DNA from: Escherichia phage phiWec179
Length of the DNA stretch: 64,000 nucleotides
Strand: one strand, 5' to 3'
Sequence record: LC739533.1
Shown here: in pieces, positions 1,948 through 58,961 of the stretch
How positions within the stretch are numbered: the stretch's first letter is position 1
Layout: every line of letters begins with the position of its first letter
Notes under the pieces: model-generated
Told to the model about the DNA's origin: nothing
Seen by the model: the letters and a program-made list of their open reading frames with translations, nothing else
Database searches by the model: none
Program-made: the position numbers and the translations under genes

Positions 1948-3015
1948 TTGACTACCATGATCCGCCTTGCTACACTGTATTTATTAACTAAGGAGGAAAT
2001 TATGGGCGTGATTAAAGGTTGGGACATTCAGAAGAAAGAATGTGAAGAAGTGGCAAGACCAGGTATTACTGTTCTTGGATTTGTTGAACCGTGGAATGGT
2101 GCACATACCAAACTGATGCTGAAATGTGAGAAGCATGGGGAATGGAATACAACCTCCATCAACAACTTCAAAAAGAATGGTTCTGGTTGTAATGGTTGTA
2201 GAGCGGATATATGTGGTGCAAGAGCAGAAGGGAATAGCTTTGCAAGTAAAAATGCTATCTCAGATGAGCAACACATTAAGGATTTCTTGGCTACCGGATT
2301 GTTTGCAGAGGGGACAACCTTCGTCAATACAGGTGTGAAAACAAAAGGTAATCACAACTGCGTGTGGAAAGTAAGTTGCCCTGTTTGTGCTGTGGATGTA
2401 TATTCTCAAGCTGGTTTATGTGATGGTAGTTTTGAAGGTCTGACTACACACCTTAAGGCTGGAAAGGTTCCTTGTCGTTGCTCTCCACGTCATTGCTATT
2501 CTAAAGACCAATGGTTGTTTAGATTTCAGTTAATGTGTGAAGAAAAAGGTTATACTTTCATCAAGGCCATCTACGAAGGGGAAGCATACTCTCATGGAGA
2601 TGTTGAGTATGCTTGTCCAGAACACGGCTCACAACGCATGACTGTGAAGAACCTCATGTCAGGTAAAGGTTGTCCAGAGTGTGCCAATAAAACACAACAG
2701 TTCTGTTATATCAATGAAGTGTATGATGAAGATAATAATCTCTGCGCTCTTAAATTTGGAATTGCCAATGATGCTGAACGTAGGATCAAAGGTCAGAACT
2801 CGAAGAATGCTTTCACAATGCAACAGAAAGCTGTCTACTTCTTTGATGATATCAAGTCGTGTCGAGCAGCAGAAAGGAAGTGTTTGAAGATGTTGAAGTG
2901 CGGTGTTGTGAATAAATTTCAATTGCAGGATGGACACACAGAAACAACCCATCTGGACAATTACGAAATTATTGAGGCTATTTACGAAAGTTTTGGAGGG
3001 GTGTTACAGAAATGA
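1948..3015 (+). CDS. Cys-rich zinc-ribbon protein with C-terminal T5orf172/GIY-YIG-like domain
   Basis: Repeated C-x-x-C/C-P-E-H-G/C-P-E-C pairs; C-terminal LKFGIANDAERRIKG resembles the KIGxT..RL core of T5orf172 domain; opposite strand to surrounding tail genes. Confidence 0.45.
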   Translation: MTTMIRLATLYLLTKEEIMGVIKGWDIQKKECEEVARPGITVLGFVEPWNGAHTKLMLKCEKHGEWNTTSINNFKKNGSGCNGCRADICGARAEGNSFASKNAISDEQHIKDFLATGLFAEGTTFVNTGVKTKGNHNCVWKVSCPVCAVDVYSQAGLCDGSFEGLTTHLKAGKVPCRCSPRHCYSKDQWLFRFQLMCEEKGYTFIKAIYEGEAYSHGDVEYACPEHGSQRMTVKNLMSGKGCPECANKTQQFCYINEVYDEDNNLCALKFGIANDAERRIKGQNSKNAFTMQQKAVYFFDDIKSCRAAERKCLKMLKCGVVNKFQLQDGHTETTHLDNYEIIEAIYESFGGVLQK

Positions 3016-3040
3016 AAAAAGGGGCCGAAGCCCCTTTCTT
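3015..3040. terminator. Bidirectional rho-independent terminator between convergent genes
   Basis: A-run, GGGGC-CGAA-GCCCC hairpin, T-run; reads as terminator on both strands. Confidence 0.6.
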
Positions 3041-4994
3041 AGTTACCACCAGATTGTCCACTTAAAGTAGCTAAAGTTAAACGGTTGAAAACATTGTTAC
3101 CACTGTTCTGAATACGAGCATCCAACATATTACCAAACTCCGAAGACGGGTTGATTGTTACGTTGATCAGATCACTCGGAATAGCAATCGTGTTTTCTAC
3201 AATAGGTTGGTTACGAGCCAGATTAACGTTTGGCGTATAAGCTGTTTCACGCAAATTCTCTAAAGGATTCCCGAAACCGAAAGCATGTGTTCGAGTTTCT
3301 TCTCCTCGGAACATTCTTCCAACGTCTTGAGTATCAATTCCAGTCCACTTATAAAGGAAGTCGGCTACTGGGTTGGTATCTCCTGATTGTGTTGCGGCGT
3401 ACAATTTGTCCGGTATAGTTTTATTAGGATCAGAATCCGGTCCGAAGATAGATGGTAAGTTTGTCACTAACCATTTATTAATATCTTCCGTGATACCGAT
3501 AATCTCTGTACCAAACTTAGCAACATTCAGTGTGGCATTTGCAAACTCCACCCCAAGATTCTTGGCAAAATTGTCCAAAGATTTAACGTTATCTAACCAA
3601 GATTCGTCTTTAGGTATTGCACTCATAAATCCTTCCAGGAAATAGTTCTGCATCCCTTGACCAACCAAACCTATTGTTGCAGTTAAACGTGTGTACTGTT
3701 TAGAAGCTTCCATTTGCTCATTAGTCAATGCAGCACCAGTACGTTGAAGCATACGGAGGGTTTCTTGGAAGCCTTCTCCGTTCTTGCTAAACATACGTTG
3801 GTAATGCATGAGGTCATCTCCAAGGTTCTCAAGAAGACGACCAATCTGTGCCGAGTTCATGCCGCGACGCTCACCTTCATTCACAGTTGCCTGGATGAAA
3901 GCTAACGGATCGTTCTGCATGTGCTTAATTTGCGAAGGGTTCCAGCCGAACATGTTCATGATATCGTTGATACCGTTGTCCCCGCCACGCCATTTTCCTT
4001 TCTTCTCGTCCCATTCAGAAGCCATCATCGAGTTACCTAAACGTTCACGAACGTCTTTAAGGTTATCGATTGACTTGATAATGTTTGCCGAGTCAACACC
4101 GTTCTGTTCACCCCAAGCAGTCATTGTCATAATGGCGTTGGCGTTTGCCTGAACGTTCTCTGCACCACGACCTACAAACTTGATACGATCATTAGCATTT
4201 TGCAAAGTGTTCCCTACAACAGAGCCACCTGCAAATAACCCTGCACCGATCATAGAAGAAACCATCATACGAGGGTTAAGACCTAAAGCACCATCTCGCA
4301 TTTGGGAATACTTACGTTCCTTATCTCGACGTTGTTGTGCCAATTCTCGTTTATGGTTACGTTCAATATCGCGCAACTCTTTATCACGCATACGTTGACG
4401 TTGCTTGGCTTCTGCTTCCAGTTCTCGACGAATCCTACGGCGACCACGAACCTCATCCTCAATATCTTTCGTTTTTTCTCTGTGGGATTTACGAAGGTTA
4501 TCAAGCTGATGGGCCAGAGTTTGGTTCATACGTTGAAGAGTGATATCTCCACGTTTGTATGATTCTACAGAGGCATCCATGATTTGTTTTGCTTGGCGTT
4601 GTGCATCTATGGAAGCTTTGGTATATTGCATACCACGCTTCTCAAAATTCTCCATGCGGAGGTTGCCTAAATCGTTACGACGAGCTTGGAGTTCTGCTGC
4701 GCGTTCTTCTGGTGTTTTCTTACCTGGTTTCGTTGGACGACCAGGACCGGAGGTAGTTCCACCACCTTTTGGAGCAGAAGGGGGAGCAGGGCGAGCAGGG
4801 AAAGTCTGCGCTTTACGCATTTCTCTTTCGATCTCTTTCATCTGCTGCCTAAATTTACTCATGTTTAAGGTAGGTTGGATTTTTTCAGCGAACCTTTTAA
4901 TACTTTCGACAGAATCTTTGGCCTCTTTGAGACTGTTCTTGTCCACCTTAAATGTGACTACGTTACTGATTTTTGAGGCATTAATATCTAACAA
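3039..4994 (-). CDS. Tail tape measure protein (tentative)
   Basis: 651 aa, long charged coiled-coil region (REK-rich), Gly/Ala-rich segment; sits immediately downstream of frameshifted chaperone pair. Confidence 0.45.
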   Translation of the reverse strand: MLDINASKISNVVTFKVDKNSLKEAKDSVESIKRFAEKIQPTLNMSKFRQQMKEIEREMRKAQTFPARPAPPSAPKGGGTTSGPGRPTKPGKKTPEERAAELQARRNDLGNLRMENFEKRGMQYTKASIDAQRQAKQIMDASVESYKRGDITLQRMNQTLAHQLDNLRKSHREKTKDIEDEVRGRRRIRRELEAEAKQRQRMRDKELRDIERNHKRELAQQRRDKERKYSQMRDGALGLNPRMMVSSMIGAGLFAGGSVVGNTLQNANDRIKFVGRGAENVQANANAIMTMTAWGEQNGVDSANIIKSIDNLKDVRERLGNSMMASEWDEKKGKWRGGDNGINDIMNMFGWNPSQIKHMQNDPLAFIQATVNEGERRGMNSAQIGRLLENLGDDLMHYQRMFSKNGEGFQETLRMLQRTGAALTNEQMEASKQYTRLTATIGLVGQGMQNYFLEGFMSAIPKDESWLDNVKSLDNFAKNLGVEFANATLNVAKFGTEIIGITEDINKWLVTNLPSIFGPDSDPNKTIPDKLYAATQSGDTNPVADFLYKWTGIDTQDVGRMFRGEETRTHAFGFGNPLENLRETAYTPNVNLARNQPIVENTIAIPSDLINVTINPSSEFGNMLDARIQNSGNNVFNRLTLATLSGQSGGN

Positions 4995-18472: not shown

Positions 18473-18562
18473 GTGTATTCCTCCTACAATTTATCGTATC
18501 ATAAAAATATTCTTGTGTCAAGTTTTACTTTTACATGTACAACTGACATACCAATAACCCAG

Positions 18563-18590
18563 AAACAAAAAAGCCTCCACGAGGGAGGCT
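18563..18590 (-). terminator. Rho-independent terminator
   Basis: GCCTCC-ACGAG-GGAGGC hairpin followed by TTTTTTGTTTC on minus strand. Confidence 0.5.
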
Positions 18591-18672
18591 CTATGCGAGT
18601 TAGGGTTAACATGTGTCCCTAATATCATTTTAACATTTCAGTATAAAAATGTCTTTAGGATAATTCTTATAA

Positions 18673-18943
18673 TTAAGGTCTGTTGATTACCTTAACAGTT
18701 TGTCCTTTGTCGTTCATCAGATAGGCTGATTCAGTTTTGTGAACAAAGATAACACGTTCACCTGCGATAACAGAGGCTACCACGCCATCTGGTCGATCAT
18801 AACCTTCCCAATGATACTGAATAATTACGTCATCCTCTAAGCAGTAAAAGAATTCTTCTTCATTTACATTGAAAGGGACGGTATTGTAAATCTTTACTTC
18901 ATCTTCTTTAGAAAATTTACGGATTGTTTTTAACGTATACATG
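18673..18943 (-). CDS. Hypothetical protein
   Basis: About 90 aa from ATG at 18943; the longer listed ORF to 19170 runs through tRNA genes and is rejected. Confidence 0.4.
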
Positions 18944-19049
18944 ATGTGTCCTATTAAGTATTTAGTGTTTAGTGGGTTGTGCGTTTTAGGAGTCGCACCC
19001 CTCCCTCTTAGAAGGAACCAGGCAAGGTCTTCAAAGATACCGCTGGCGC

Positions 19050-19128
19050 GATATTTGGAGGCGGGAATCGGATTCGAACCGATGATCTCCAGCATATGAA
19101 ACTGGCGAGGACGACCAAACTCCTCTAT
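19050..19128 (-). tRNA. tRNA with anticodon CAU (Met or Ile2)
   Basis: Hand-folded: acceptor AGCGGGA/TCCCGCC (1:72 mismatch), anticodon stem CCAGT/GCTGG, loop TTCATAT, T-arm ATCGG-TTCGAAT-CCGAT, encoded CCA. Confidence 0.6.
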
Positions 19129-19134
19129 CCCGCT

Positions 19135-19205
19135 ATTAGGTGTCCCGTGCTGGATTCGAACCAGCATCACAATAAGTTGTGGATCTCTTATCCTGTAAGT
19201 CTAAC
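19135..19205 (-). tRNA. tRNA-like element, non-canonical (no standard anticodon arm found)
   Basis: Perfect T-arm GCTGG-TTCGAAT-CCAGC and near-complementary acceptor strands, but the middle forms a CACAA/TTGTG tetraloop hairpin instead; no encoded CCA. Confidence 0.3.
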
Positions 19206-19206
19206 G

Positions 19207-19280
19207 GGAAACTGGTTGTTTCGACAAGAATCGAACTTGTGTCTCACGATTATCAGTCGTGGGTTCTACCATTGAACTAC
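19207..19280 (-). tRNA. tRNA-Ile (GAU)
   Basis: Acceptor TGTTTCG/CGAAACA, D-arm GTTC-AATGGTA-GAAC, anticodon arm CACGA-CTGATAA-TCGTG, T-arm ACAAG-TTCGATT-CTTGT, encoded ACCA. Confidence 0.75.
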
Positions 19281-19286
19281 GAAACA

Positions 19287-31185: not shown

Positions 31186-31214
31186 TTGACTTGCAGACTT
31201 CATTGTGATACTAT
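31186..31214 (+). promoter_or_regulatory. Sigma70-like promoter
   Basis: TTGACT -35, 17-nt spacer, TACTAT -10. Confidence 0.5.
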
Positions 31215-31243
31215 GCCTACCTACTCAACGAGGTAGGCTTTTA
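31215..31243 (+). terminator. Hairpin with T-run overlapping promoter-proximal leader
   Basis: GCCTACCT-ACTCAACG-AGGTAGGC then TTTT; may terminate upstream transcripts or structure the leader. Confidence 0.4.
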
Positions 31244-31252
31244 GGAGGTGTT

Positions 31253-33561: not shown

Positions 33562-33590
33562 AAGGGGCTTCGGCCCCTTTTTTAATTTAA
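33562..33590 (+). terminator. Rho-independent terminator
   Basis: AGGGGC-TTCG-GCCCCT hairpin followed by TTTTTTAATTT. Confidence 0.7.
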
Positions 33591-33593
33591 GTG

Positions 33594-33622
33594 TTGACAT
33601 AGAGAACCAAGTGCGATACAAT
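33594..33622 (+). promoter_or_regulatory. Near-consensus sigma70 promoter
   Basis: TTGACA -35, 17-nt spacer, TACAAT -10. Confidence 0.6.
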
Positions 33623-35534: not shown

Positions 35535-36152
35535 ATGAAGATAGTTTGTGATTGGGATCTGGTGGTTGCTCCACTGGATGTTGCTTGGCTGGAATGGTTG
35601 GTTAAAGTTAGTGGAGATTGTGTAGGCTTCTCCGAAGCTGTCAAGAATGTTGACTACGATCTTACTAAATACTTCCCAGGTTTCCGTGAGAAGTTTAACA
35701 TCGATCCTTACGGCTTTCTGGATAATCCCCATCTCTATGACACGATGGGATGTATCAAACCTATGGCTGACTTCTTAGAAGGTATTGTGAAAGAGGGCGA
35801 TAATGCACTTATTGCAAGTGTGACTAAAGGTGGACACCTTAGCTCAAAACACAAACATGTTTTAAGAACTTTGCCAACCATTGATTTTGGTAAAGGTTCT
35901 GGTAACGGTTTCTTTGCCACAAAAGAAAAATACCTGTTGCCTTGTGATATTGCCATAGATGATAGGGCAGAAAACCTGTTGTATTTTCCAGATCATGTTG
36001 TTAAGATTTATTACAATACGATGTATAAAGATTTGTATTTGGAAGAATTAAAAAAGAAACCAAACGTAGTTGTCACGGGTTTGTACAATCAAGCAGAAAC
36101 CTGTTGGCAGGTTTATTCAATGTTAAAAGAACGAGGAGAAATTAATGTCTAA
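35535..36152 (+). CDS. HAD-superfamily hydrolase, possible 5'-deoxynucleotidase
   Basis: N-terminal CDWDLVV (DxDxV motif I-like) and downstream IDD motif; located just upstream of thyX. Confidence 0.35.
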   Translation: MKIVCDWDLVVAPLDVAWLEWLVKVSGDCVGFSEAVKNVDYDLTKYFPGFREKFNIDPYGFLDNPHLYDTMGCIKPMADFLEGIVKEGDNALIASVTKGGHLSSKHKHVLRTLPTIDFGKGSGNGFFATKEKYLLPCDIAIDDRAENLLYFPDHVVKIYYNTMYKDLYLEELKKKPNVVVTGLYNQAETCWQVYSMLKERGEINV

Positions 36153-37134
36153 TATCAGTGCACAAGTCATCGCCCAATCCATCAACGAAGAAGGACAGAT
36201 GATCACAACTTTCGAACTGGAATATCCACGCATCATCCATTCGGAACTGATGACACACCGCCTATTCTCCCGAAACGCTGCTTCAAGCCGCGCTATTCCC
36301 GTCAAGACTTTGATTGAGATGGTTCGCAACGAACCTGCGGCACCTGTTCGATTTGGTCAACACCAACCTGGGATGCAGGATCAAGGTGTAGAGTATGATG
36401 CTCTCATTGGGGTAGGTTATTCGAGTCGTGAGTGGTGGAATTTAGCTGCACTTAGTGCGGCAAACTTTGCAGAACAAATGGCGGAAGCTGGTTACGCGAA
36501 GCAGGTTTGTAATCGCCTTCTTGAACCATTCCAAAAAATGAAGACGGTTCTGACAGCAACCGAATATGAAAACTTCTGGTGGCTACGTGATGATGCTGAT
36601 GCTGATCCGACTATTGAAGCTTTAGCCAAAATTATGTTTGAAGCCTATGAAGCTTCTACTCCAGAACTACTGGCTCCAGGTCAATGGCATACGCCTTACG
36701 TAGATCATGTCTACGAGAACATTGGTTTGGAAGGTGATGATGTTTGGGTATTCAGTGGGTATAGCACTACAGATGAAAATGGCAATACTATCATGCTGTC
36801 GCTGGAAGAAGCACTTGCAATCTCTTCTTCTTGTTGCGCACAAGTGAGCTATCGTCGTCTGAATGCAACTAAAGATAAAGCTTTGGACATTTATGGACGT
36901 TTGCTTACCGGACGTAAAGTTCACGCTTCCCCTTTTGAACATCAGGCAACCCCAATGAAAAAAATGGATTTGTCAGGCTTAAAACGACAGGAGCATGGTG
37001 TTAATATTCCTCCGTTCCCGATTTCTTGGGAACCAGGCGTTACTCATGTAGATCGTAATGGTCAATTCTGGTCGGGGAATATGAAGGGTTGGGTACAACA
37101 TCGTCAACTTTTAGACAATCATACTAAATGGTGA
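36145..37134 (+). CDS. thyX: Flavin-dependent thymidylate synthase ThyX
   Basis: ThyX signature THRLFSRNAASSRAIP (RHR...SxR). Confidence 0.8.
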   Translation: MSNISAQVIAQSINEEGQMITTFELEYPRIIHSELMTHRLFSRNAASSRAIPVKTLIEMVRNEPAAPVRFGQHQPGMQDQGVEYDALIGVGYSSREWWNLAALSAANFAEQMAEAGYAKQVCNRLLEPFQKMKTVLTATEYENFWWLRDDADADPTIEALAKIMFEAYEASTPELLAPGQWHTPYVDHVYENIGLEGDDVWVFSGYSTTDENGNTIMLSLEEALAISSSCCAQVSYRRLNATKDKALDIYGRLLTGRKVHASPFEHQATPMKKMDLSGLKRQEHGVNIPPFPISWEPGVTHVDRNGQFWSGNMKGWVQHRQLLDNHTKW

Positions 37135-37150
37135 TTCGAGTAAATTCTTA

Positions 37151-37180
37151 TTGACTTTAGTGTTAGATTTAGTGTAGTAT
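37151..37180 (+). promoter_or_regulatory. Sigma70-like promoter
   Basis: TTGACT -35, 18-nt spacer, TAGTAT -10; followed by leader hairpin GGGGG...CCCCC. Confidence 0.4.
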
Positions 37181-37230
37181 AGCAAAACGTTGGGGGAGGT
37201 GAGATTCCCCCTTTATAAAAGGAGAAAATT

Positions 37231-37641
37231 ATGTCATTAGTAAACACTACCACTTGGGCTACCGTGAGCATGTCTACCGTTAAGTCTACCCCGATCTGGA
37301 AGCAAGAGTCAGAAAAATACCGTGGTCATATTCCTCACGATCGTCACGCAGATGTACTTCGTGCCGCTCTGGTGTTCCTTGGTATGAACGAAGATGGCAA
37401 CTTCTCTGTTGAACGTAATGTTAACATTCGTAGTAACAACGACAACAGTTTGGTTTATATCAACACAACTCTTTATACTTTTGCTGTTAAAGAAAGCTGT
37501 CCTTTCAAACATATCTACCAAAAGAATGATATTTTTCATTACGGAGATGAAGAGTTTGGCGGTTGGGGTGTGACCCACACAAAAATGGATGATTTCGGTA
37601 ATTCCTATGATCCTGCGAGAGCAGAAGATAATTCACTTTAA
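37231..37641 (+). CDS. Hypothetical protein
   Basis: 136 aa; RBS AAAAGGAG. Confidence 0.45.
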   Translation: MSLVNTTTWATVSMSTVKSTPIWKQESEKYRGHIPHDRHADVLRAALVFLGMNEDGNFSVERNVNIRSNNDNSLVYINTTLYTFAVKESCPFKHIYQKNDIFHYGDEEFGGWGVTHTKMDDFGNSYDPARAEDNSL

Positions 37642-37651
37642 GAGAGGGATA

Positions 37652-37897
37652 ATGACCGATAATAAATACGAAGGCTGTGAGATTGAAGTTTACTTTGATG
37701 AGACAGTAGGCTGTAATGTTACAGTTATTTTAGATACTTCCAAACGCTTATCACCAAAACGACAGGAAGCAGATCGCAAAGCTAAAGCGAAAGGTTTCCA
37801 TGATATAAATCATTTTGAAGGGTTCCTTTATGCGAACGGGCTGTTTAACGAAATGAAATTTGGATACGATGTAGACGTGCTTGGGATTCATAGTTAA
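37652..37897 (+). CDS. Hypothetical protein
   Basis: Start moved to ATG 37652 after RBS AGAGGGA. Confidence 0.4.
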   Translation: MTDNKYEGCEIEVYFDETVGCNVTVILDTSKRLSPKRQEADRKAKAKGFHDINHFEGFLYANGLFNEMKFGYDVDVLGIHS

Positions 37898-37911: not shown

Positions 37912-40152
37912 GTGATTCGATACGTTACTAAATCAAATGGTAAGACAGAAGAGTTCAATCCTGAAAAACTGCGTAAATGGTCTGAATTTGCAGCAGGGAA
38001 ACTGAACTGGTCGGAAATTGAATTAGAAGCTGTGAAACGTTGTTACGATGGTGTGTCTACTCGTGATTTACATAAAGCTATGATCGCTGCGTGTATTGAT
38101 AAGAAGACTCAAGCGTACAGTGATATGGCAGGTCGATTGCTTCTCGGTATGATTTACAAACAGGCTCACGGGGGATACCACAGTATCCCTTCCCTGTACA
38201 CTTTCTACCAAGATATGGTGAAGCGTGGACATTGGGCCAAGATGGACTATACCGAAGAAGAAATCAAAGAGATTGGTAAGATTGTCAAACATAACAAGAA
38301 TCTAACCTACGGTTATTCTGTTCTTCGTCAGATGGCGGATAAATACTTGGTTCGTGATGCTGTGAATGATGTTGTTCACGAGTCACCGCAATTCCTGTTT
38401 ATTGGTGTGGCAATGCGTGTTATGGAGATCCAGCCTAAAGATCGTCGTATCAACGATATCAAAAAGCTGTACACATACGTAAGTGATCTTCAGATTAACT
38501 TACCATCTCCTTATCTGACAACGTTACGTACTCCGATCAAAGGTAGCGCGTCTTGTTGTTTATTCCGTGCAGACGATACAGCAGAGTCTTTGGCTATTGC
38601 AAACTATCTGGCACACGAATATACGTTGAATAATGCAGGGATTGGTGTTAACCTCCAAACTCGTGCAACTGGACAGGGTGTTAAGAACAACCGTATCGTT
38701 CATGGTGGTCTTCTCCCTTACCTCAAGTGGATGGAAGATAGCGTAGGAGCTTCTAAACAAGCGAGTCGTGGAGGTAGTGCAACGGTTACGTTCACAATCT
38801 TGGAGCCAGATTTTGAAGATCTGATTCGACTGAAGAACCCAACCACTCCGATCGATAAGCGTGTTGATAAGCTGGATTACTCTGTTGTTGTAAACCGCTC
38901 CTTCCTTCGCCGTGCGGCTAAAGGTGAAGAGTGGATGCTTGTGAGCTGTGACGAAGCACCGGAACTTTACGAAGCATTGTACAAAAGTGAAGAAGAGTTC
39001 GATGCGGTCTACGATAAAGTTAGTCGCCGTCGCATCAAAAAGAAAATTGTTAAGGCTCGTGACCTGTTGACTGAAATCATTGTTCAACGTGCAGAAACTG
39101 GACGTATTTATATGTTCTTCGCTGACAACGTAAACAATCACAGTCCTTTCCTGGATACTGTGTATCAGTCAAACTTATGTCAGGAGATCTTTTTACCTAC
39201 TAAAGCGTTCCATAAAATGACGGATCTCTTTACTGGTGAAAACACAGAAGATCAAGAATTGGCTTTATGCTTCTTGTCCTCTATTGTTGCTGGGCGCGTT
39301 ACGCCGGAGCAATATGAAGATGTTGCGTATTATACTGTATTGACGATTGATAACGTTATTGAGACGATGGAATATCCGTTCAAACATAACGAGATCACAG
39401 CTAAGGCTCGCCGCTCTATCGGCGTAGGTATTACAAACCTTGCACATTACTTGGCAAGCAACTTTGTAACCTATTCTGATCCTTATGCGAAGAAGCTGAT
39501 GCATGAATTAGCAGAACGTCATTACTTCTGGTTGGCACAAGCCTCTCTGCGCTTGGCGAAAGAGAAAGGTAATGCCGAGTGGATGGATAAAACTAAGTGG
39601 CCTCAAGGTTGGCTCCCTATTGACACCTACGCTAAAGCAGTAGATACTATTGGGGACTTTGAACTGAAGCTGGATTGGGAAGGCTTACGTGCTGGTATCA
39701 TTGAACAAGGTGGTATCCGTAACAGTGTGCTTGCAGCAGTGGCCCCGAACGAATCAAGTAGCTTGGTGAGTAATACGACCAACTCACTCTACCCTGTACG
39801 TGACACGATCATGTACAAACAGAGTCAGAAAGGTAACGTACTGTTTATCGTACCAGATTACGAAAAACTGAAAATGTTCTATCAGTCGGCGTGGGATACC
39901 CCGTCTAAAGATATTGCCGAGATGTATGGACTCTTCACTAAGTTTACGGATCAGGGTATCTCCTGTGATGCTTGGTTAGATTATTCCAAAATGGAAGGTG
40001 GACGTTTATCAGTGAAAGCCGAGATGCAATTTATCTTAACATTTGCAAAGCTTGGTGGTAAATCTCTTTACTACCTGAACAGCCGAACCAAATCAGCGGA
40101 ATCTATGGCCCAAGAAGATTCTGATGGTGGTTGTGAAGCTTGTAAAATGTAG
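37912..40152 (+). CDS. nrdA: Ribonucleoside-diphosphate reductase alpha subunit (class I)
   Basis: 746 aa; N-terminal ATP-cone (IRYVTKSNGKTEEFNPEKL), paired with adjacent R2; GTG start after GGGAGGAG RBS. Confidence 0.85.
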   Translation: MIRYVTKSNGKTEEFNPEKLRKWSEFAAGKLNWSEIELEAVKRCYDGVSTRDLHKAMIAACIDKKTQAYSDMAGRLLLGMIYKQAHGGYHSIPSLYTFYQDMVKRGHWAKMDYTEEEIKEIGKIVKHNKNLTYGYSVLRQMADKYLVRDAVNDVVHESPQFLFIGVAMRVMEIQPKDRRINDIKKLYTYVSDLQINLPSPYLTTLRTPIKGSASCCLFRADDTAESLAIANYLAHEYTLNNAGIGVNLQTRATGQGVKNNRIVHGGLLPYLKWMEDSVGASKQASRGGSATVTFTILEPDFEDLIRLKNPTTPIDKRVDKLDYSVVVNRSFLRRAAKGEEWMLVSCDEAPELYEALYKSEEEFDAVYDKVSRRRIKKKIVKARDLLTEIIVQRAETGRIYMFFADNVNNHSPFLDTVYQSNLCQEIFLPTKAFHKMTDLFTGENTEDQELALCFLSSIVAGRVTPEQYEDVAYYTVLTIDNVIETMEYPFKHNEITAKARRSIGVGITNLAHYLASNFVTYSDPYAKKLMHELAERHYFWLAQASLRLAKEKGNAEWMDKTKWPQGWLPIDTYAKAVDTIGDFELKLDWEGLRAGIIEQGGIRNSVLAAVAPNESSSLVSNTTNSLYPVRDTIMYKQSQKGNVLFIVPDYEKLKMFYQSAWDTPSKDIAEMYGLFTKFTDQGISCDAWLDYSKMEGGRLSVKAEMQFILTFAKLGGKSLYYLNSRTKSAESMAQEDSDGGCEACKM

Positions 40153-40157
40153 CAATA

Positions 40158-40181
40158 CAGGGGCTTCGGCCCCTTTTTTAT
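40158..40181 (+). terminator. Rho-independent terminator after nrdA
   Basis: AGGGGC-TTCG-GCCCCT followed by TTTTTT. Confidence 0.65.
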
Positions 40182-42283: not shown

Positions 42284-43276
42284 ATGCGCTATCTGGTAAC
42301 AGGTGGTCTTGGTTTTATTGGGAGCGCCGTTGTGCGCTCTCTTTGTCAAGATCCTAATAACGAAGTTTTTGTCATTGATAAAATGGGCTACGCAGCCGAT
42401 ATTGAAAATGTAGGGGATATCACTCACGCCAAACTAAGCATGACGGATTTGGCAAACGAAGCACAGGTCAAAAGTTTGGTGGTAGAATGCAACCCTGATT
42501 TCATTATTCACTTAGCGGCAGAGAGTCATGTGGACAACTCTATCAAAAATCCACGAGCTTTCATCGACTCCAATATCATCGGTACATATAATTTACTGGA
42601 AGCTGCGAGACTACTCCCAAGGAATAAGCTGAAGATGTTTGTACACGTCTCCACAGACGAAGTGTACGGCGATATGGCAGACTCTGGCGCTCCCTTTACC
42701 GAAGAGACAGCATATACTCCTTCAAGCCCGTACAGCGCGTCCAAGGCGGCTTCTGATCATCTTGTGAAAGCTTGGCACCGTACTTATGACTTGCCTGTAG
42801 TGATAACTAATTGCTCCAATAATTTTGGACCTTACCAATACCCTGAAAAATTGATTCCAAAAGTAATCACAAGCATCTTGACGAACAAAGAAATCCCAGT
42901 GTATGGTAAAGGTGATCAGGTACGAGACTGGCTTTTTGTTGAGGACCATGCACGAGCTATTCTTCAGGTAGCTTCTGGCGGCGAACCTGGACAAACTTAC
43001 AACGTAGGTACACGTAATCCTAAAACCAATATGGAGATCATCTATATGATTTGTGATTACATGGATGCCGTACACCCGCAAAGTGGAACCTACCCCTCTT
43101 CAAGTTTAATAACTTTTGTTGAAGATCGTAAAGGACATGACTTGCATTATGAAATCAACCCTGCTAAGATTGAATCTGAACTGGGTTGGAGTGCAAACTC
43201 CACATTTGAACAAGACCTTTACTCTACGATAGAGTGGTATTTAAACAACCCTCAATGGTGGAGAGAAAAGATTTAA
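42284..43276 (+). CDS. rmlB: dTDP-glucose 4,6-dehydratase
   Basis: TGGLGFIGS Rossmann motif, [10 protein letters not shown] (YxxxK) catalytic motif. Confidence 0.85.
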
Positions 43277-43284
43277 GGAGGGTT

Positions 43285-44163
43285 ATGAAAGGTATTATTT
43301 TGGCTGGAGGAAGTGGAACCCGCCTACATCCAGTAACACGCAGTGTGAGCAAGCAATTGCTCCCTGTGTATGACAAACCTATGATTTATTATCCTTTATC
43401 AGTCTTGATGTTGGCAGATATTAAGGATATCTTAATCATCACAACCCCAGGCGATCAGGAAGATTTTGAGTATCTTCTTGGAGATGGATCTATGTTTGGG
43501 ATAAAGATCACTTACGCAATGCAGTCTGAACCACGAGGTCTTGCAGATGCTTTCATCATTGGTAAAGATTTCATTGGGGAAGATTCTGTTGCCCTTATTT
43601 TAGGGGATAACTTGTTCTTCGGACAAAGTTTCGGAAAACTTCTTATCCAAGCCAGCGAAATGGTGGATGTTTGGGGTGGAGCTTGTATCTTCGGGTATCT
43701 GGTGAAAGATCCTGAACGATTCGGTGTTGTTGAGTTTGGAAGTAATCGCCAAGCTATCTCTATTGAAGAGAAACCGGAACATCCTAAATCAGACTATGCT
43801 GTCACGGGTTTGTATTTCTATGACAACTCTGTTGTTCAACGTGCATTGGAAGTAACCCCTTCCGAGCGTGGAGAACTGGAGATCACAGATATCAATCGCA
43901 GCTACCTCGAAGACAGGAAGTTACAAGTTGAAGTTCTTGGAAGAGGATTCACTTGGTTGGATACAGGGACACACGCCAGTCTAATGGAAGCAGGTCAATT
44001 CGTGCAGACTATTGAGAACTGCCAAGGATTGAAGATTGCGTGCCTGGAAGAGATCGCTTTCAAAAAAGGGTGGATTTCTTTAGAGACTTTGGTGTATCAT
44101 GGCAACTCATTGAAGAAAACAGAGTACGGGCAATATTTGTTAAAATTAGCGGAGGGTAAATGA
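43285..44163 (+). CDS. rmlA: Glucose-1-phosphate thymidylyltransferase
   Basis: [17 protein letters not shown] signature; start set to ATG 43285 after RBS AAGGAGGG. Confidence 0.85.
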
Positions 44164-44720
44164 AAATAAAAGAATTAAGTATTCCTGGTCTGGTTGTCTT
44201 TAAACCTCAAGTTTACAAAGATGATCGTGGTTACTTCACGGAGACGTTTAACGAGAAGATTTACGAAGAGGTTATTGGCAAACAAACGTTTGTTCAGGAT
44301 AACCATTCATTCTCTACTTTAGGTGTTCTTCGCGGAATGCACTTTCAAGTAAACAATCCGCAAGGTAAGCTTGTACGTTGCACACGAGGTGAAGTTTTTG
44401 ACGTGGCTGTAGATCTTCGTGAAGGTAGTCCAACCTTCGGACAATGGGAAGGTGTGATTCTTAGTGGGCGTAACAATAAACAGTTTTGGATTCCACCTGG
44501 CTTTGCACATGGTTTTGTTGTAACCTCTTATGAAGCCAACTTTGAATACAAGTGCACCAACTACTACGATCCGGCATCTGAACGTAGTTTGTTGTGGAAC
44601 GATCCTACTGTGAATATTGATTGGGGTTTTGATATGATTTTCAATGATGAGAATTTTGTACCTATCATTTCGGAAAAGGATGCACAAGCTAAAACACTGA
44701 AGGAGCTTATGGAATCATGA
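44160..44720 (+). CDS. rmlC: dTDP-4-dehydrorhamnose 3,5-epimerase
   Basis: Cupin-type RmlC pattern ([11 protein letters not shown] ... GMHFQ ... [10 protein letters not shown]). Confidence 0.85.
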
Positions 44721-45559
44721 AAACATATTTAGTATTGGGTGGTAATGGTCAATTAGGTCAGGCACTGCGTAAAGTGGTGCCGGAGAATGTGACTTTGGTG
44801 TATCCAGAAAAGCGTGTAGATATCACCAGTTTCGAAGCTGTAAGAAAAGCGATCATGGACACCCCAAATATTAACGGTGTTATCAACTGTGCGGCATACA
44901 CTGCGGTGGACAAAGCAGAGACAGATGTTGATGCAGCTATGGCTGTAAATTTACACGGGGCAGCTAATATTGCTGCCTTCTGTAAGGCTTGGGATATTGA
45001 CATGGTGCATATTTCTACTGACTATGTGTTCAACAGCGATAAACCGTTGTTCCATCAGGATGAACCCAACCCTATCAATGTTTACGGGTTATCTAAAAGT
45101 TTGGGTGAAGCTGCTGTTCGTGGTATCTACCATAAAGCTTTTATTATCCGCACGGCTTCTGTGTATAGCGAGTTTGGTAACAACTTCCTGAAGACTATGG
45201 TGTCTCGTTACAACGATGGTCAAAGAGACTTCTCGGTAGTTGCAGATCAAACATCTCGACCAACTTATGCCCCAGATTTGGCTAAGATGATTTTCCAAGT
45301 GTTGGAAACAGGATATAACACCCGTACTTTGCATTACGCTGGGAACATCACTGTTTCGTGGCACCAGTTCGCAAAAATGATATTGACACGTATGCCTGAA
45401 TCTGTTATTATACACCCGACCTCTGCTGCAACCTATAATTCGGCAGCGATGCGACCAGCAAAGTCTATACTAATTACGTCTGGTTGGAACGAACCTTCAA
45501 GCGTCGGACAAGGTATTGAAGAATCTTTAGCAGTATTACTTAATAAGGAGAGAGCATGA
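44717..45559 (+). CDS. rmlD: dTDP-4-dehydrorhamnose reductase
   Basis: LVLGGNGQLG Rossmann motif; ATGA-coupled to rmlC. Confidence 0.8.
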   Translation: MKTYLVLGGNGQLGQALRKVVPENVTLVYPEKRVDITSFEAVRKAIMDTPNINGVINCAAYTAVDKAETDVDAAMAVNLHGAANIAAFCKAWDIDMVHISTDYVFNSDKPLFHQDEPNPINVYGLSKSLGEAAVRGIYHKAFIIRTASVYSEFGNNFLKTMVSRYNDGQRDFSVVADQTSRPTYAPDLAKMIFQVLETGYNTRTLHYAGNITVSWHQFAKMILTRMPESVIIHPTSAATYNSAAMRPAKSILITSGWNEPSSVGQGIEESLAVLLNKERA

Positions 45560-56915: not shown

Positions 56916-57580
56916 TGACCCATTTAAAACCTTTTGGTGGAAAACCTATTGTGGCGTATCAAGTAGATCGTGATGATTGGGAAGGCAGTGTAGTTGTCTT
57001 TGGTAATCATTTCTTTGCTGTGCGTCGTAAAGGCGCAAGCATGTTAGATTGTGAGGAGGAGTATTGTCATGTCTCCCGTGCCAAAGAATTCGACCAGTAT
57101 GTAGAAAAAGGTTTTGTGCCTGTCAAAGCTTTACTGGAGGCAGGATGGTGGATACACTCTGCTCATGATGGTGTTAGACTTGACGAGTCTGTAGATAGTC
57201 TTGAGGCAGATTTTGACGAATGTGAAGATGGCATGTATATTGAGGGGGATCTTGTATTTTCCCTTGACGAGAAAAGTGTGTGGAAGAACTGGGAAGAAAT
57301 GGAACGTCACGCGCATTTTATCAATGATGCTTTGATTCGTAAAGCTTGGTTCACGGAGGCGGTGAAGGTAGCGTATCCGCAATTCACCTTTACAGAGGTT
57401 TGGGGCGGTCCACACCACATCACCCATACAGCATTTTTCGACTTCCCTGGTTCACGTTACAAAGGTAATGTAATGTGGGACTGGGATGAGAATGAAGTAC
57501 CATCTGTTCAAGACTTTCGTTGTTATGTTTGCCAAGGCGATCAAGAAGCCCTTGACAAATACCTGCAAAGTCTGGTATAG
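56912..57580 (+). CDS. Hypothetical protein
   Basis: 222 aa; ATGA-coupled. Confidence 0.45.
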   Translation: MMTHLKPFGGKPIVAYQVDRDDWEGSVVVFGNHFFAVRRKGASMLDCEEEYCHVSRAKEFDQYVEKGFVPVKALLEAGWWIHSAHDGVRLDESVDSLEADFDECEDGMYIEGDLVFSLDEKSVWKNWEEMERHAHFINDALIRKAWFTEAVKVAYPQFTFTEVWGGPHHITHTAFFDFPGSRYKGNVMWDWDENEVPSVQDFRCYVCQGDQEALDKYLQSLV

Positions 57581-57597
57581 TGCCAGCATCTGAACAA

Positions 57598-57625
57598 AGC
57601 CTCCTGCTTCAGGGGGCTTTTCTTT
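57598..57625 (+). terminator. Rho-independent terminator
   Basis: AGCCTCC-TGCTTCA-GGGGGCT followed by TTTCTTTT. Confidence 0.55.
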
Positions 57626-57638
57626 TATGGGAGGAAAT

Positions 57639-58133
57639 ATGTTTCAAGTAGAAATTCATGTGCACAACAGTTGTTCAAATTGCGAAACTTGTGGTTACAA
57701 TAGTTCAACCATGATCACTGTTAGCGGAGACTTAGGACATGCCAAGTTTGGCGAAGTCGCAAGCTGCTTCAGCGGAGAGGATGCAGATTGGCATGATATT
57801 GCTTTGTGGCTATGCGGAAGACTGAATGTAAATTGTAAAGACTTCCCTGAACTGTTGAGCCGAAATCTTATTGATAGTCGGGAACAAGCCTACAATATTT
57901 ATGCCGCTTCTGTTTATGTTGATCATAAATGGGTAGAAGATGAAGAAGCTGAACGTTTGCTGCGCCTCTACTACGAAGCAGAGGAAGCTTATGATAACTA
58001 TTATAGCATGTCCAACATTCTACGCTTGTTTGCAGAGTTTGATATTTACTTTGAAGTGAGTTATTCTGAAGAGGAAGTGTATGATTTTGATGACGATGAT
58101 TACGAGGAGGATGAAGAATGCCAAGACGATTAA
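57639..58133 (+). CDS. Hypothetical Cys-containing acidic protein
   Basis: Start set to ATG 57639 after RBS GGGAGGAAA; C-terminal poly-acidic tail. Confidence 0.4.
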   Translation: MFQVEIHVHNSCSNCETCGYNSSTMITVSGDLGHAKFGEVASCFSGEDADWHDIALWLCGRLNVNCKDFPELLSRNLIDSREQAYNIYAASVYVDHKWVEDEEAERLLRLYYEAEEAYDNYYSMSNILRLFAEFDIYFEVSYSEEEVYDFDDDDYEEDEECQDD

Positions 58134-58918
58134 TAGTGATCAGCGGTGCTGGTCTAAGCGCCGATAGCGGTGTACGTACTTTCCGCACTGATACAGATAG
58201 CGGGAAAGCTTTGTGGGATGAATACGACCTTTCTGAAGTGTGCGATATTTTCAATTTCCGTGCTGGCTACCAGCAAGAACAATGTGTTCCTGGCGCTGCT
58301 GGTGGATTAGATGCAGAGGGATACAACCTCTACCGTAAAACTCACGACTTCTACAATAAACGTCGCGTAGAGATGGATAGTGTGTCTCCTAACGCTGCGC
58401 ATTACCAGATCGCAGAGTGGTTCCAAGAGTACGGCTGCGATCGTGTTATCAACATCACAACAAACGTAGATGATCTTCTGGAACAAGCAGGGGTTGTTCA
58501 TGAAGATGTTCTGCATGTTCACGGCTTCCTGCCTGAAGTGATTGTAGACAATAGAATCATCAAGGATGTTGGTTATGCTGCTATTGATGTAGATGATTAC
58601 AAGTATGTGAAGCCCAATGTAGTGTTCTTTGGGGAGACTGCCCCACTGTATAACGATATGTACCACATCTTAGACGGCTTGACGGCTCAAGATATGGTGG
58701 TTGTAGTGGGCTGCTCTAATCAAGTGATCAACTTCAACTGGGATTTGTTCCCAGCCCTCAACATAGGAACAAAGATGGTCGTAGTTAATCCTGGGGTTAA
58801 TTACGAAGAAACACTTCTCTATGAAGATCGTGGAGTTTTTGTTTACCGAGAAAAAGCTGCAACAGCCTTCAGTAATGAAGGTTTCATTAAAATGATCGAA
58901 GACCACTTAAACAAATAA
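58118..58918 (+). CDS. Sir2-family (sirtuin-like) NAD-dependent protein
   Basis: ISGAGLSADSGVRTFR, VLHVHG, VVFFGE; no obvious Zn-binding Cys tetrad. Confidence 0.6.
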   Translation: MPRRLIVISGAGLSADSGVRTFRTDTDSGKALWDEYDLSEVCDIFNFRAGYQQEQCVPGAAGGLDAEGYNLYRKTHDFYNKRRVEMDSVSPNAAHYQIAEWFQEYGCDRVINITTNVDDLLEQAGVVHEDVLHVHGFLPEVIVDNRIIKDVGYAAIDVDDYKYVKPNVVFFGETAPLYNDMYHILDGLTAQDMVVVVGCSNQVINFNWDLFPALNIGTKMVVVNPGVNYEETLLYEDRGVFVYREKAATAFSNEGFIKMIEDHLNK

Positions 58919-58923
58919 ACCAA

Positions 58924-58948
58924 CCAAGGGGCTACGGCCCCTTTCTTA
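58924..58948 (+). terminator. Rho-independent terminator
   Basis: AGGGGC-TACG-GCCCCT followed by TTCTTATT. Confidence 0.55.
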
Positions 58949-58961
58949 TTAGGAGATTACT

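What the first reader, a model, noticed from the sequence alone, without database searches (positions are those of the whole stretch)
37151..37215. Promoter followed by a GGGGG/CCCCC leader hairpin upstream of an RBS
After a -35/-10 pair, the leader forms a G5/C5-closed hairpin followed by TTTATAAAA and then the RBS of the next gene. This could be an attenuator, RNA thermometer or RNase processing site controlling the nrdA-proximal operon.
Basis: seen in the sequence. Interest (0 to 1): 0.25.

Follow-up and report, generated by a model that had tools for sequence, protein, structure and literature searches.

The report
Conserved promoter plus leader hairpin before nrdA
This is a real and conserved but ordinary phage control region: a host-type promoter followed by a small stable RNA hairpin in front of the genes leading into ribonucleotide reductase, probably an RNA stability element and not a switch.

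Summary
The window is Escherichia phage phiWec181/186 (Stephanstirmvirinae).
- -35 TTGACT at 37151-56 and -10 TAGTAT at 37175-80
- a 7-bp G5/C5 stem-loop at 37192-37211
- an A/U-rich spacer, SD AGGAG at 37220-24 and ATG at 37231

In this one sequence the evidence is weak (fold z about -1.1; promoter-like hits are not above chance). Comparison settles it. In 12 homologous spacers, TTGACTTT and TA[GA]TAT are invariant. The stem is kept by compensatory changes (GGGGGA/TCCCCC, GGGAGGA/TCCTCCC, AGGAGAGC/GCTCTCCT, GGGACT/AGTCCC), with 5 of 8 pairs changed on both sides. Distant Vequintavirinae have an unrelated GC hairpin in the same place, and the homologous rV5 promoter (P107) was predicted in 2013.

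The hairpin has no conserved U-tract, no upstream alternative partner, and does not contain the SD. So attenuator and RNA-thermometer readings are not supported. The best reading is a constitutive sense-strand RNA stem-loop acting as an mRNA stability or insulation element. That is an inference, because no 5' ends have been mapped. Its layout resembles the PeSL promoter/stem-loop cassettes of T4-like phages, but it is not a repeated cassette. Interest is low.

The parts
36145..37134 (+). Upstream gene, a flavin-dependent thymidylate synthase (thyX-like). It is the last gene of the upstream unit, and its stop TGA is at 37132-34.
   Evidence: Pfam Thy1, 9e-09. PHROG 85 thymidylate synthase, 3.6e-105. 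Annotated only as hypothetical in LC739534/35.
37151..37156 (+). -35 hexamer TTGACT of the internal sigma70-type promoter.
   Evidence: TTGACTTT is invariant in 12 homologous spacers. The homologous rV5 promoter P107 was predicted in PMC3606486 Table S4.
37175..37180 (+). -10 hexamer TAGTAT, after an 18-nt spacer.
   Evidence: TA[GA]TAT is invariant in the 12 homologues, with a 17-18 nt spacer.
37187..37189 (+). Predicted transcription start. It is either A37187, the 7th nt after the -10, or G37189 within a conserved Y-R step. Not mapped.
   Evidence: Inferred from the usual -10-to-start distance. The AA at 37186-87 is invariant in alignment A2.
37192..37211 (+). Leader stem-loop: 5' arm GGGGGAG (37192-98), loop GUGAGA (37199-204), 3' arm UUCCCCC (37205-11).
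   Evidence: MFE -13 kcal/mol. Covariation is shown. The sense strand folds slightly better than the antisense in 10 of 13 homologues.
37212..37219 (+). A/U-rich unpaired spacer UUUAUAAA. It is not a conserved U-tract.
   Evidence: The terminator scan finds nothing here.
37220..37224 (+). Shine-Dalgarno AGGAG, 6 nt before the ATG.
   Evidence: AGGAG is conserved in all 12 Stephanstirmvirinae homologues. Predicted P(unpaired) is 0.70.
37231..37641 (+). First gene of the unit: a 136-aa protein of unknown function, the phi92 gp077 family.
   Evidence: PHROG 15711, unknown function. tblastn finds 134 phage records, and the six whose taxonomy I read are Stephanstirmvirinae.
37652..37897 (+). Second gene of the unit: an 81-aa protein of unknown function.
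   Evidence: Annotation. PHROG 15807.
37912..40152 (+). nrdA, the ribonucleotide reductase large subunit and third gene of the unit.
   Evidence: Pfam Ribonuc_red_lgC, 7.7e-98. Annotation.
40160..40179 (+). Strong intrinsic terminator GGGGC-TTCG-GCCCC followed by T6, which closes the unit.
   Evidence: Repeat family D1 and intergenic fold. Homologous to rV5 t109.

Best explanation
The site is an internal host-type (sigma70) promoter in the thyX-to-gp077-like intergenic spacer. It adds transcripts to the unit made of two small unknown genes and nrdA, which ends at the strong terminator after nrdA.

A 7-bp GC-rich stem-loop forms in the sense RNA 10-11 nt after the -10. That places it about 2-5 nt from the predicted 5' end. 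An unpaired A/U-rich spacer and a strong SD follow.

The stem-loop is a constitutive structural element, not a switch. Most likely it sets RNA stability and insulates the RBS in three ways:
- As a 5'-proximal hairpin on promoter-initiated mRNA, it hinders 5'-end-dependent decay by RppH and RNase E, as in ompA and papA.
- In read-through RNA from thyX, it is an intercistronic hairpin that can become a protective end after processing.
- It ties up a CU-rich segment that would otherwise pair with the SD.

What is shown: the sequence parts, their conservation, the covariation, the lack of a U-tract, and the free SD. What is inferred: promoter activity, the start site, and the stability function.
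For: - Promoter. TTGACTTT and TA[GA]TAT with a 17-18 nt spacer are invariant in 12 homologues, while the stop-to-(-35) linker varies in length and sequence. The homologous rV5 site was independently predicted as P107, TTGACT-17-TATAAT.
- Unit boundaries. There is a terminator-promoter pair at 33564-33622 and a terminator at 40160-79.
- Stem. RNAalifold recovers it, with 4 of 6 pairs compensatory. In the stem-anchored alignment, 5 of 8 pairs changed on both sides. 88.9% of cells are paired, against 75.9% in shuffles (0 of 500 reach the observed value) and 57-67% in slid controls.
- Deeper conservation. Vequintavirinae carry unrelated GC stems at the same place, with energies of -11.5 to -16.4 kcal/mol throughout.
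- Strand. G.U pairs are present, and the sense strand is the more stable in 10 of 13 homologues.
- Spacing. The -10-to-stem distance is 10-11 nt in 11 of 12 Stephanstirmvirinae, whereas the stem-to-SD distance (5-12 nt) and the loop (3-8 nt) vary.
- SD. It is predicted free when the hairpin forms. If the 5' arm is blocked, the 3' arm pairs with the SD at -5.4 kcal/mol here.
- Literature. 5' secondary structure stabilises E. coli mRNA because RppH and RNase E need single-stranded 5' ends (PMC3997798; PMC8833179).
Against: - No 5' or 3' end mapping exists for this phage family.
- With the canonical start at A37187, 5 nt stay unpaired. RppH and RNase E need only 2 and prefer 3 or more, so protection may be partial.
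- In distant relatives the geometry differs. The stem starts 2-3 nt after the -10 in KP13-16 and rV5-like EdH4, so the start would fall inside the 5' arm. It starts 15-16 nt after in PVP-SE1 and Iguana. A strictly 5'-terminal role therefore cannot hold across the wider group.
- The single-sequence fold is not significant.
- The stem-anchored alignment is fitted to the structure, and purine-rich versus pyrimidine-rich arms raise the baseline pairing.
Confidence: 0.45

Rival explanations
1. PeSL-type insulator. The stem-loop mainly attenuates or ends transcription coming from thyX, and the adjacent promoter restarts it. This keeps the two units separately controlled.
For: - The composite layout matches the published PeSL description: upstream stop, sigma70 promoter, polyG/polyC stem-loop, SD and start within about 100 bp (PMC2839356).
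- One PeSL stem-loop reduced reporter expression as much as rrnB T1.
- In KP13-16 and rV5-like EdH4, the stem overlaps the predicted start, so only read-through RNA would carry it.
- A clear cassette of this kind exists in the same window at 31186-31252, with the hairpin abutting the -10 and followed by T4-5. It is conserved in L024.
Against: - There is no conserved U-tract: 4 U in 8 nt here and 1-4 in relatives, against T6 at true terminators.
- It is not called by the terminator scan, nor listed among the ARNold terminators of rV5.
- In this phage the whole stem lies downstream of the predicted start, so it would equally hit the promoter's own transcripts.
Confidence: 0.2
2. Translational switch or thermometer. 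The 5' arm mimics an SD (GGAGGUGA), the 3' arm is an anti-SD (CCUCC-like), and the true SD follows. Loss or melting of the 5' pairing would let the 3' arm close the RBS.
For: - With the 5' arm blocked, the 3' arm pairs with the SD in every Stephanstirmvirinae homologue, at -3.6 to -10.9 kcal/mol.
- In phi92 the SD-closed fold is the MFE, and P(SD unpaired) is 0.14.
Against: - In this phage the hairpin wins by 7.6 kcal/mol, and the SD stays 0.61-0.76 unpaired from 25 to 42 C.
- SD mimicry is absent in EdH4 (GGCUCAC), Iguana (GGGGC) and KP13-16 (GGGACU).
- Retention of purines in the 5' arm is explained by transition-only compensatory paths through G.U intermediates.
- No trigger is evident, and there is no Rfam thermometer hit.
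Confidence: 0.07
3. Protein-binding site. This would be either an RNA operator for a phage or host protein, or a palindromic DNA operator just downstream of the -10 that shuts the promoter off.
For: - The inverted repeat sits at +6 to +25, a classic operator position.
- Covariation also preserves dyad symmetry.
- The KP13-16 loop GAAGA equals the lambda nutL boxB loop (from memory; sequence).
Against: - Loop sequence and length are not conserved (3-8 nt), so half-site spacing is not fixed.
- Arm sequences differ completely between lineages.
- G.U pairs break the DNA symmetry.
Confidence: 0.08
4. The hairpin is a chance or neutral inverted repeat with no function. Only the promoter matters.
For: The single-sequence fold z is about -1.1. 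GC-rich hairpins are common in this genome's spacers.
Against: There are compensatory changes at 5 of 8 pairs. A stem of similar energy persists in two subfamilies despite complete sequence turnover.
Confidence: 0.05

Closest known systems
PeSL (promoter-early stem-loop) cassettes of T4-like phages RB49/phi1 (Arbiol et al. 2010, PMC2839356; Comeau et al. 2014, PMC4122927)
   Same: Both are about 100-bp intergenic composites. Each has the upstream stop codon, a strong sigma70-like -35/-10, a stable stem-loop often made of polyG then polyC, and the SD and start of the next gene. One PeSL subclass has the stem downstream of the -10.
   Different: - Here the stem lies 10-11 nt after the -10, beyond the likely start.
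- The cassette is single-copy in the window and is not a repeated motif.
- It sits in a conserved thyX-nrdA core with fixed synteny, not a hyperplastic region.
- The host phage is a Stephanstirmvirinae, not a T4-like phage.
- There is no evidence of recombination or shuffling.
5'-terminal stabilising stem-loops of E. coli mRNAs (ompA, papA; reviewed in PMC3997798)
   Same: In both, the stem sequence is free to vary while the structure is kept. The stem lies near the 5' end and is followed by an A/U-rich unpaired segment and the SD. In papA the hairpin is intercistronic and becomes 5'-terminal after RNase E processing (from memory).
   Different: The start site is unmapped. The predicted 2-5 unpaired nt are at the edge of what protects. 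The geometry is not kept in Vequintavirinae relatives.
Intrinsic terminators and attenuators of the same genome (GGGGC-TTCG-GCCCC-T6 family)
   Same: A GC-rich short stem of similar energy lying in an intergenic spacer.
   Different: There is no tetraloop, no conserved U-tract and no alternative structure. It lies downstream of a promoter, not upstream of one.
Predicted promoter P107 of phage rV5 (Kropinski et al. 2013, PMC3606486, Table S4)
   Same: It is the homologous intergenic promoter, TTGACT-17-TATAAT, downstream of thyX and upstream of the homologous gene. The same terminator follows nrdA (t109).
   Different: It was predicted in silico only. The adjacent hairpin (GGCTCAC/GTGAGCC) was not described, and in rV5-like phages it begins 3 nt after the -10.

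Membership tests
Intrinsic terminator / transcription attenuator | GC-rich hairpin immediately followed by a U-tract (about 5 or more U in 8 nt) | tested here: not met
   UUUAUAAA has 4 U here, relatives have 1-4, and true terminators in the window have T6.
Intrinsic terminator / transcription attenuator | Mutually exclusive antiterminator structure or leader peptide upstream of the terminator | tested here: not met
   Only about 5 nt of transcript precede the stem. The tiny ATT-CCC-CCT-TTA-TAA frame is not conserved.
RNA thermometer (ROSE, fourU types) | SD or start codon sequestered in the temperature-labile hairpin | tested here: not met
   The SD is 8 nt downstream of the stem. P(unpaired) is 0.61, 0.70 and 0.76 at 25, 37 and 42 C. 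No Rfam hit comes near any gathering score.
5'-terminal stabilising stem-loop (ompA/papA type) | Stem-loop within a few nt of the mRNA 5' end | tested here: inconclusive
   The predicted start at 37187-37189 leaves 2-5 unpaired nt. No mapping data exist.
5'-terminal stabilising stem-loop (ompA/papA type) | Structure, not sequence, is what is conserved | tested here: met
   Compensatory changes at 5 of 8 pairs, and unrelated stems in Vequintavirinae.
5'-terminal stabilising stem-loop (ompA/papA type) | Disruption shortens mRNA half-life in an RppH/RNase E-dependent way | not testable with these tools
   Needs rifampicin-chase experiments.
PeSL cassette | sigma70-like promoter, stem-loop and SD/start within one short intergenic spacer | tested here: met
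PeSL cassette | Multi-copy repeated motif with sequence similarity between copies | tested here: not met
   No second copy of the 32-nt promoter with up to 3 mismatches, and it is not in any repeat family. Only the 64-kb window was searched.
PeSL cassette | Located in hyperplastic regions, flanking shuffled ORFans | tested here: not met
   The thyX-spacer-gp077-like gene order is kept in all 12 Stephanstirmvirinae loci, and nrdA follows in the four annotated that far. The only difference is an HNH gene inserted in CR9 and PVP-SE1.
RNase III processing site | Roughly two helical turns (about 20 bp) of double-stranded RNA | tested here: not met
   The stem is 6-9 bp in all homologues.
lambda-type nut boxB | Conserved GNRA-like pentaloop on a 5-bp stem, with a boxA nearby | tested here: not met
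   Loops differ in length and sequence (GUGAGA, GGUGAG, GUA, UAU, UGUC, UUCUG). Only KP13-16 has GAAGA.
Palindromic DNA operator | Fixed half-site spacing and strict dyad symmetry | tested here: not met
   The loop is 3-8 nt, G.U pairs are present, and the sense strand folds slightly better.

The most novel reading that the evidence does not exclude
PeSL-like promoter/stem-loop cassettes are a general device of large virulent non-T4 myoviruses (Stephanstirmvirinae and Vequintavirinae). The stem is placed at, just after, or well after the start site to set how much upstream transcription and which RNA ends each unit sees. In the phi92 group this particular stem would double as a three-part translational switch (SD mimic, anti-SD, SD).
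Probability: 0.12. Interest if true: 0.4.

Novelty: new member of a known kind. Interest (0 to 1): 0.17.

Why it matters
The main value is for annotation. The finding defines a transcription unit in a phage group with no transcript maps: a promoter at 37151-80, then two small genes and nrdA, then a terminator at 40160-79. It also gives a clean, covariation-supported leader hairpin that could be used to test how virulent coliphages protect or insulate their mRNAs. The homologous promoter had already been predicted in rV5, and leader or intercistronic stem-loops are a familiar device, so a specialist would not be surprised.

Tried and rejected
- Rfam, on the local region at E up to 10 and on the whole window at gathering scores. 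Only tRNAs passed, and nothing matched at the site.
- IMG/VR scans with the downstream protein and with a DNA pattern. They returned no hairpin variants beyond those in GenBank phages.
- Literature searches for transcript maps of Phapecoctavirus or Stephanstirmvirinae. None were found; one search was mis-specified and wasted.
- A plain MAFFT alignment of the leader put the 3' arms out of register. I therefore used RNAalifold on the hairpin region and a stem-anchored alignment with the loop removed. The latter is fitted to the structure.
- Terminator or attenuator: rejected for lack of a U-tract and of any alternative structure.
- RNA thermometer: rejected because the SD lies outside the stem.
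- RNase III site: rejected because the stem is too short.
- boxB/nut: rejected because the loops are not conserved.
- DNA operator: rejected on variable spacing and G.U pairs.
- An upstream mini-ORF after the SD-like GGAGGTGA (ATT CCC CCT TTA TAA): rejected as not conserved.
- A T4/rV5-type late promoter in TATAAAAG: rejected as not conserved and not matching the rV5 late motif.
- SD mimicry of the 5' arm as a conserved feature: rejected because it is absent in EdH4, Iguana and KP13-16.

Full report
**Source and context.** The window is 100% identical to Escherichia phage phiWec181/phiWec186. GenBank files these phages under Phapecoctavirus, Stephanstirmvirinae, and a recent paper proposes the genus 'Wecvirus' for them (PMC12695924). 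The first 32 kb match LC739535.1 53451-85450 exactly.

The finding lies in the 96-nt spacer 37135-37230.
- Upstream is a thyX-like thymidylate synthase gene at 36145-37134 (Pfam Thy1; PHROG 85).
- Downstream is a 136-aa gene of unknown function at 37231-37641, of the phi92 gp077 family (PHROG 15711).
- An 81-aa unknown gene, nrdA (37912-40152) and a strong terminator at 40160-40179 follow.

| Element | Coordinates |
|---|---|
| -35 TTGACT | 37151-56 |
| Spacer | 18 nt |
| -10 TAGTAT | 37175-80 |
| Stem 5' arm GGGGGAG | 37192-98 |
| Loop GUGAGA | 37199-204 |
| Stem 3' arm UUCCCCC | 37205-11 |
| UUUAUAAA | 37212-19 |
| SD AGGAG | 37220-24 |
| ATG | 37231 |

The stem-loop folds at -13 kcal/mol.

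Taken alone, this sequence is weak evidence.
- The G5...C5 pattern is unique in the window, but 6 of 100 shuffles have at least one.
- The leader fold has z = -1.09.
- Promoter-like hits in the region are at chance level.

**Comparative evidence.** I collected the homologous spacer from 12 Stephanstirmvirinae sources:
- phiWec188, PsgM04F and an IMG/VR contig
- AV126, ESCO5 and a phAPEC8-like contig
- phi92 and PD114
- a Klebsiella-type contig and phi1_175008
- Citrobacter Tr1
- Klebsiella KP13-16

TTGACTTT and TA[GA]TAT with a 17-18 nt spacer are invariant. The linker between the thyX stop and the -35 varies in length (9-19 nt) and sequence.

The stem is kept while its sequence changes:

| Source | 5' arm | 3' arm |
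|---|---|---|
| phiWec181 | GGGGGA | TCCCCC |
| AV126, ESCO5 | GGGAGGA | TCCTCCC |
| phi92, PD114 | AGGAGAGC | GCTCTCCT |
| Klebsiella-type contig, phi1_175008 | GGGAGAGC | GCTCTCC(T) |
| Citrobacter Tr1 | GGGGAGG | CCTCCTC |
| KP13-16 | GGGACT | AGTCCC |

RNAalifold on a plain alignment recovers the hairpin, with 4 of 6 pairs compensatory. In a stem-anchored alignment with the loop removed, 5 of 8 pairs changed on both sides. In that alignment 88.9% of cells pair, against 75.9% in shuffles (0 of 500 reach the observed value) and 57-67% when the partner is slid by 1-3 columns. The caveat is that this alignment is fitted to the stem.

G.U pairs occur, and the sense strand folds better than the antisense in 10 of 13 homologues. 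This points to a sense-strand RNA structure and not to a DNA dyad.

**More distant relatives.** Vequintavirinae have the same layout upstream of the homologous gene, but with unrelated stems.
- rV5-like EdH4: TTGACT-17-TATAAT, then 3 nt, then GGCTCAC/GTGAGCC.
- PVP-SE1: TTGACA-17-TATCTT, then 15 nt, then GGGGAG/CTCCCC.
- Klebsiella Iguana: GGGGC/GCCCC.
- CR9: CCGGGGC/GCCCCGG, with no evident promoter.

All of these stems fall between -11.5 and -16.4 kcal/mol. The rV5 genome paper had already predicted the homologous promoter (P107) and the terminator after nrdA (t109). It did not list the hairpin as a terminator (PMC3606486 Table S4).

**What it is not.**
- Not an intrinsic terminator or attenuator. 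The U-tract is short here (4 U in 8 nt) and not conserved (1-4 U), whereas the genome's real terminators are GGGGC-TTCG-GCCCC followed by T6. Only about 5 nt of transcript precede the stem, so no antiterminator can form.
- Not an RNA thermometer. The SD lies outside the stem and is predicted 0.61-0.76 unpaired between 25 and 42 C. No Rfam family matches.
- Not an RNase III site. The stem is only 6-9 bp.
- Not a nut boxB or a fixed-spacing operator. The loops vary from 3 to 8 nt and in sequence.

**Most likely mechanism (inference).** The promoter adds transcripts for the unit of two small genes and nrdA, on top of read-through from the upstream promoter at 33594-33622. The stem-loop is a constitutive RNA element.

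In 11 of 12 Stephanstirmvirinae it begins 10-11 nt after the -10, while the loop length and the stem-to-SD distance vary. With a start at A37187, or at the conserved Y-R step ending at G37189, 2-5 nt would be unpaired ahead of it. 5' secondary structure stabilises E. coli mRNAs because RppH and RNase E need single-stranded 5' ends (PMC3997798). They need at least two unpaired nucleotides and prefer three or more (PMC8833179). Protection here would therefore be borderline and depends on the real start site.

In read-through RNA the same hairpin is intercistronic. It could become a protective 5' or 3' end after cleavage in the flanking A/U-rich segments, as I recall for papA.

The stem also sequesters a CU-rich 3' arm. 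When the 5' arm is blocked, that arm pairs with the SD at -5.4 kcal/mol here and up to -10.9 kcal/mol in phi92. I give this stability and insulation reading 0.45.

**Evidence against it.** In KP13-16 and rV5-like phages the stem overlaps the predicted start. In PVP-SE1 and Iguana it lies 15-16 nt from the -10. A strictly 5'-terminal role therefore cannot be general across the wider group.

**Rivals.**
- PeSL-type attenuation of upstream transcription (0.2). The composite layout matches the PeSL description (PMC2839356). The window also holds a clearer cassette of that type at 31186-31252, with the hairpin abutting the -10 and followed by a T-run; it is conserved in a phAPEC8-like contig. At the finding itself, however, the U-tract is missing and the stem lies downstream of the likely start.
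- Translational switch of SD mimic, anti-SD and SD (0.07). It is attractive for phi92, where the SD-closed fold is the MFE. It is weak here, and the SD mimicry is not conserved in Vequintavirinae or KP13-16.
- Protein-binding site (0.08).
- Neutral repeat (0.05).

**Membership.** The element works like, and is laid out like, a PeSL or a leader stabiliser hairpin. It fails two PeSL defining features: it is not a multi-copy repeated motif, and it is not in a hyperplastic region with shuffled genes. I therefore file it as a new member of a known kind, a conserved promoter plus leader or intercistronic stem-loop, and not as a PeSL.

**Verdict.** The element is ordinary in kind, so interest is low (0.17).

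Noticed in passing
window 31186-31252: Promoter TTGACT-17-TACTAT with an 8-bp hairpin (GCCTACCT/AGGTAGGC) starting directly after the -10, followed by T4 and the SD. This is a PeSL-like promoter/terminator overlap in which the promoter's own transcript would start inside the 5' arm. It is conserved, with T5, in the phAPEC8-like contig L024.
   Followed up: partly
window 57552-57638: Promoter-like TTGACA-18-TATAGT inside the 3' end of the upstream gene. About 15 nt later comes a 10-bp hairpin plus UUUUCUUUU, just before the SD of the next gene (fold z = -2.4). This promoter-terminator-gene order makes it a better attenuator candidate than the finding.
   Followed up: partly
window 33564-33583, 40160-40179, 58928-58950, 3006-3043: A family of near-identical intrinsic terminators, GGGGC-TTCG/TACG-GCCCC followed by a T-run. 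The one after nrdA corresponds to rV5 terminator t109.
   Followed up: partly
window 18473-19055 (- strand): A 583-nt stretch with no annotated gene between a small CDS and the tRNA cluster. It holds a minus-strand ORF (18673-19170 from the mechanical start; an inner ATG would give about 87 aa) that overlaps tRNA-Met at its 5' side.
   Followed up: no
window 19056-21370 (- strand): Ten tRNA genes with several sigma70-like promoters. The spacers between them are unusually long (313, 331 and 257 nt) and strongly structured, with MFE of -83 to -90 kcal/mol. No Rfam family other than tRNA matches.
   Followed up: no
window 42284-45559 and 58118-58918: The phage record annotates a full dTDP-rhamnose pathway (rffG, glucose-1-phosphate thymidylyltransferase, rfbC, rfbD) and a cobB-type NAD-dependent deacylase.
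   Followed up: no
L015 (Klebsiella phage KP13-16) about 736-760: The homologous hairpin is GGGACU-GAAGA-AGUCCC, starting 2 nt after the -10. From memory, its GAAGA loop on a U-A closing pair equals the lambda nutL boxB loop. No other homologue shares the loop.
   Followed up: partly
L026 (CR9) 1224-1532; L027 (PVP-SE1) 1143-1541: An HNH endonuclease gene is inserted between thyX and the homologous downstream gene in two Vequintavirinae. In PVP-SE1 the promoter and hairpin lie downstream of the insertion. In CR9 only a hairpin with a U-rich tail is evident.
   Followed up: partly
window 36145-37134: The gene is annotated only as 'hypothetical protein' in LC739534/35, but it is clearly a ThyX-type thymidylate synthase (PHROG 85 at 3.6e-105). 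Pfam Thy1 covers only residues 21-173 of 329.
   Followed up: partly
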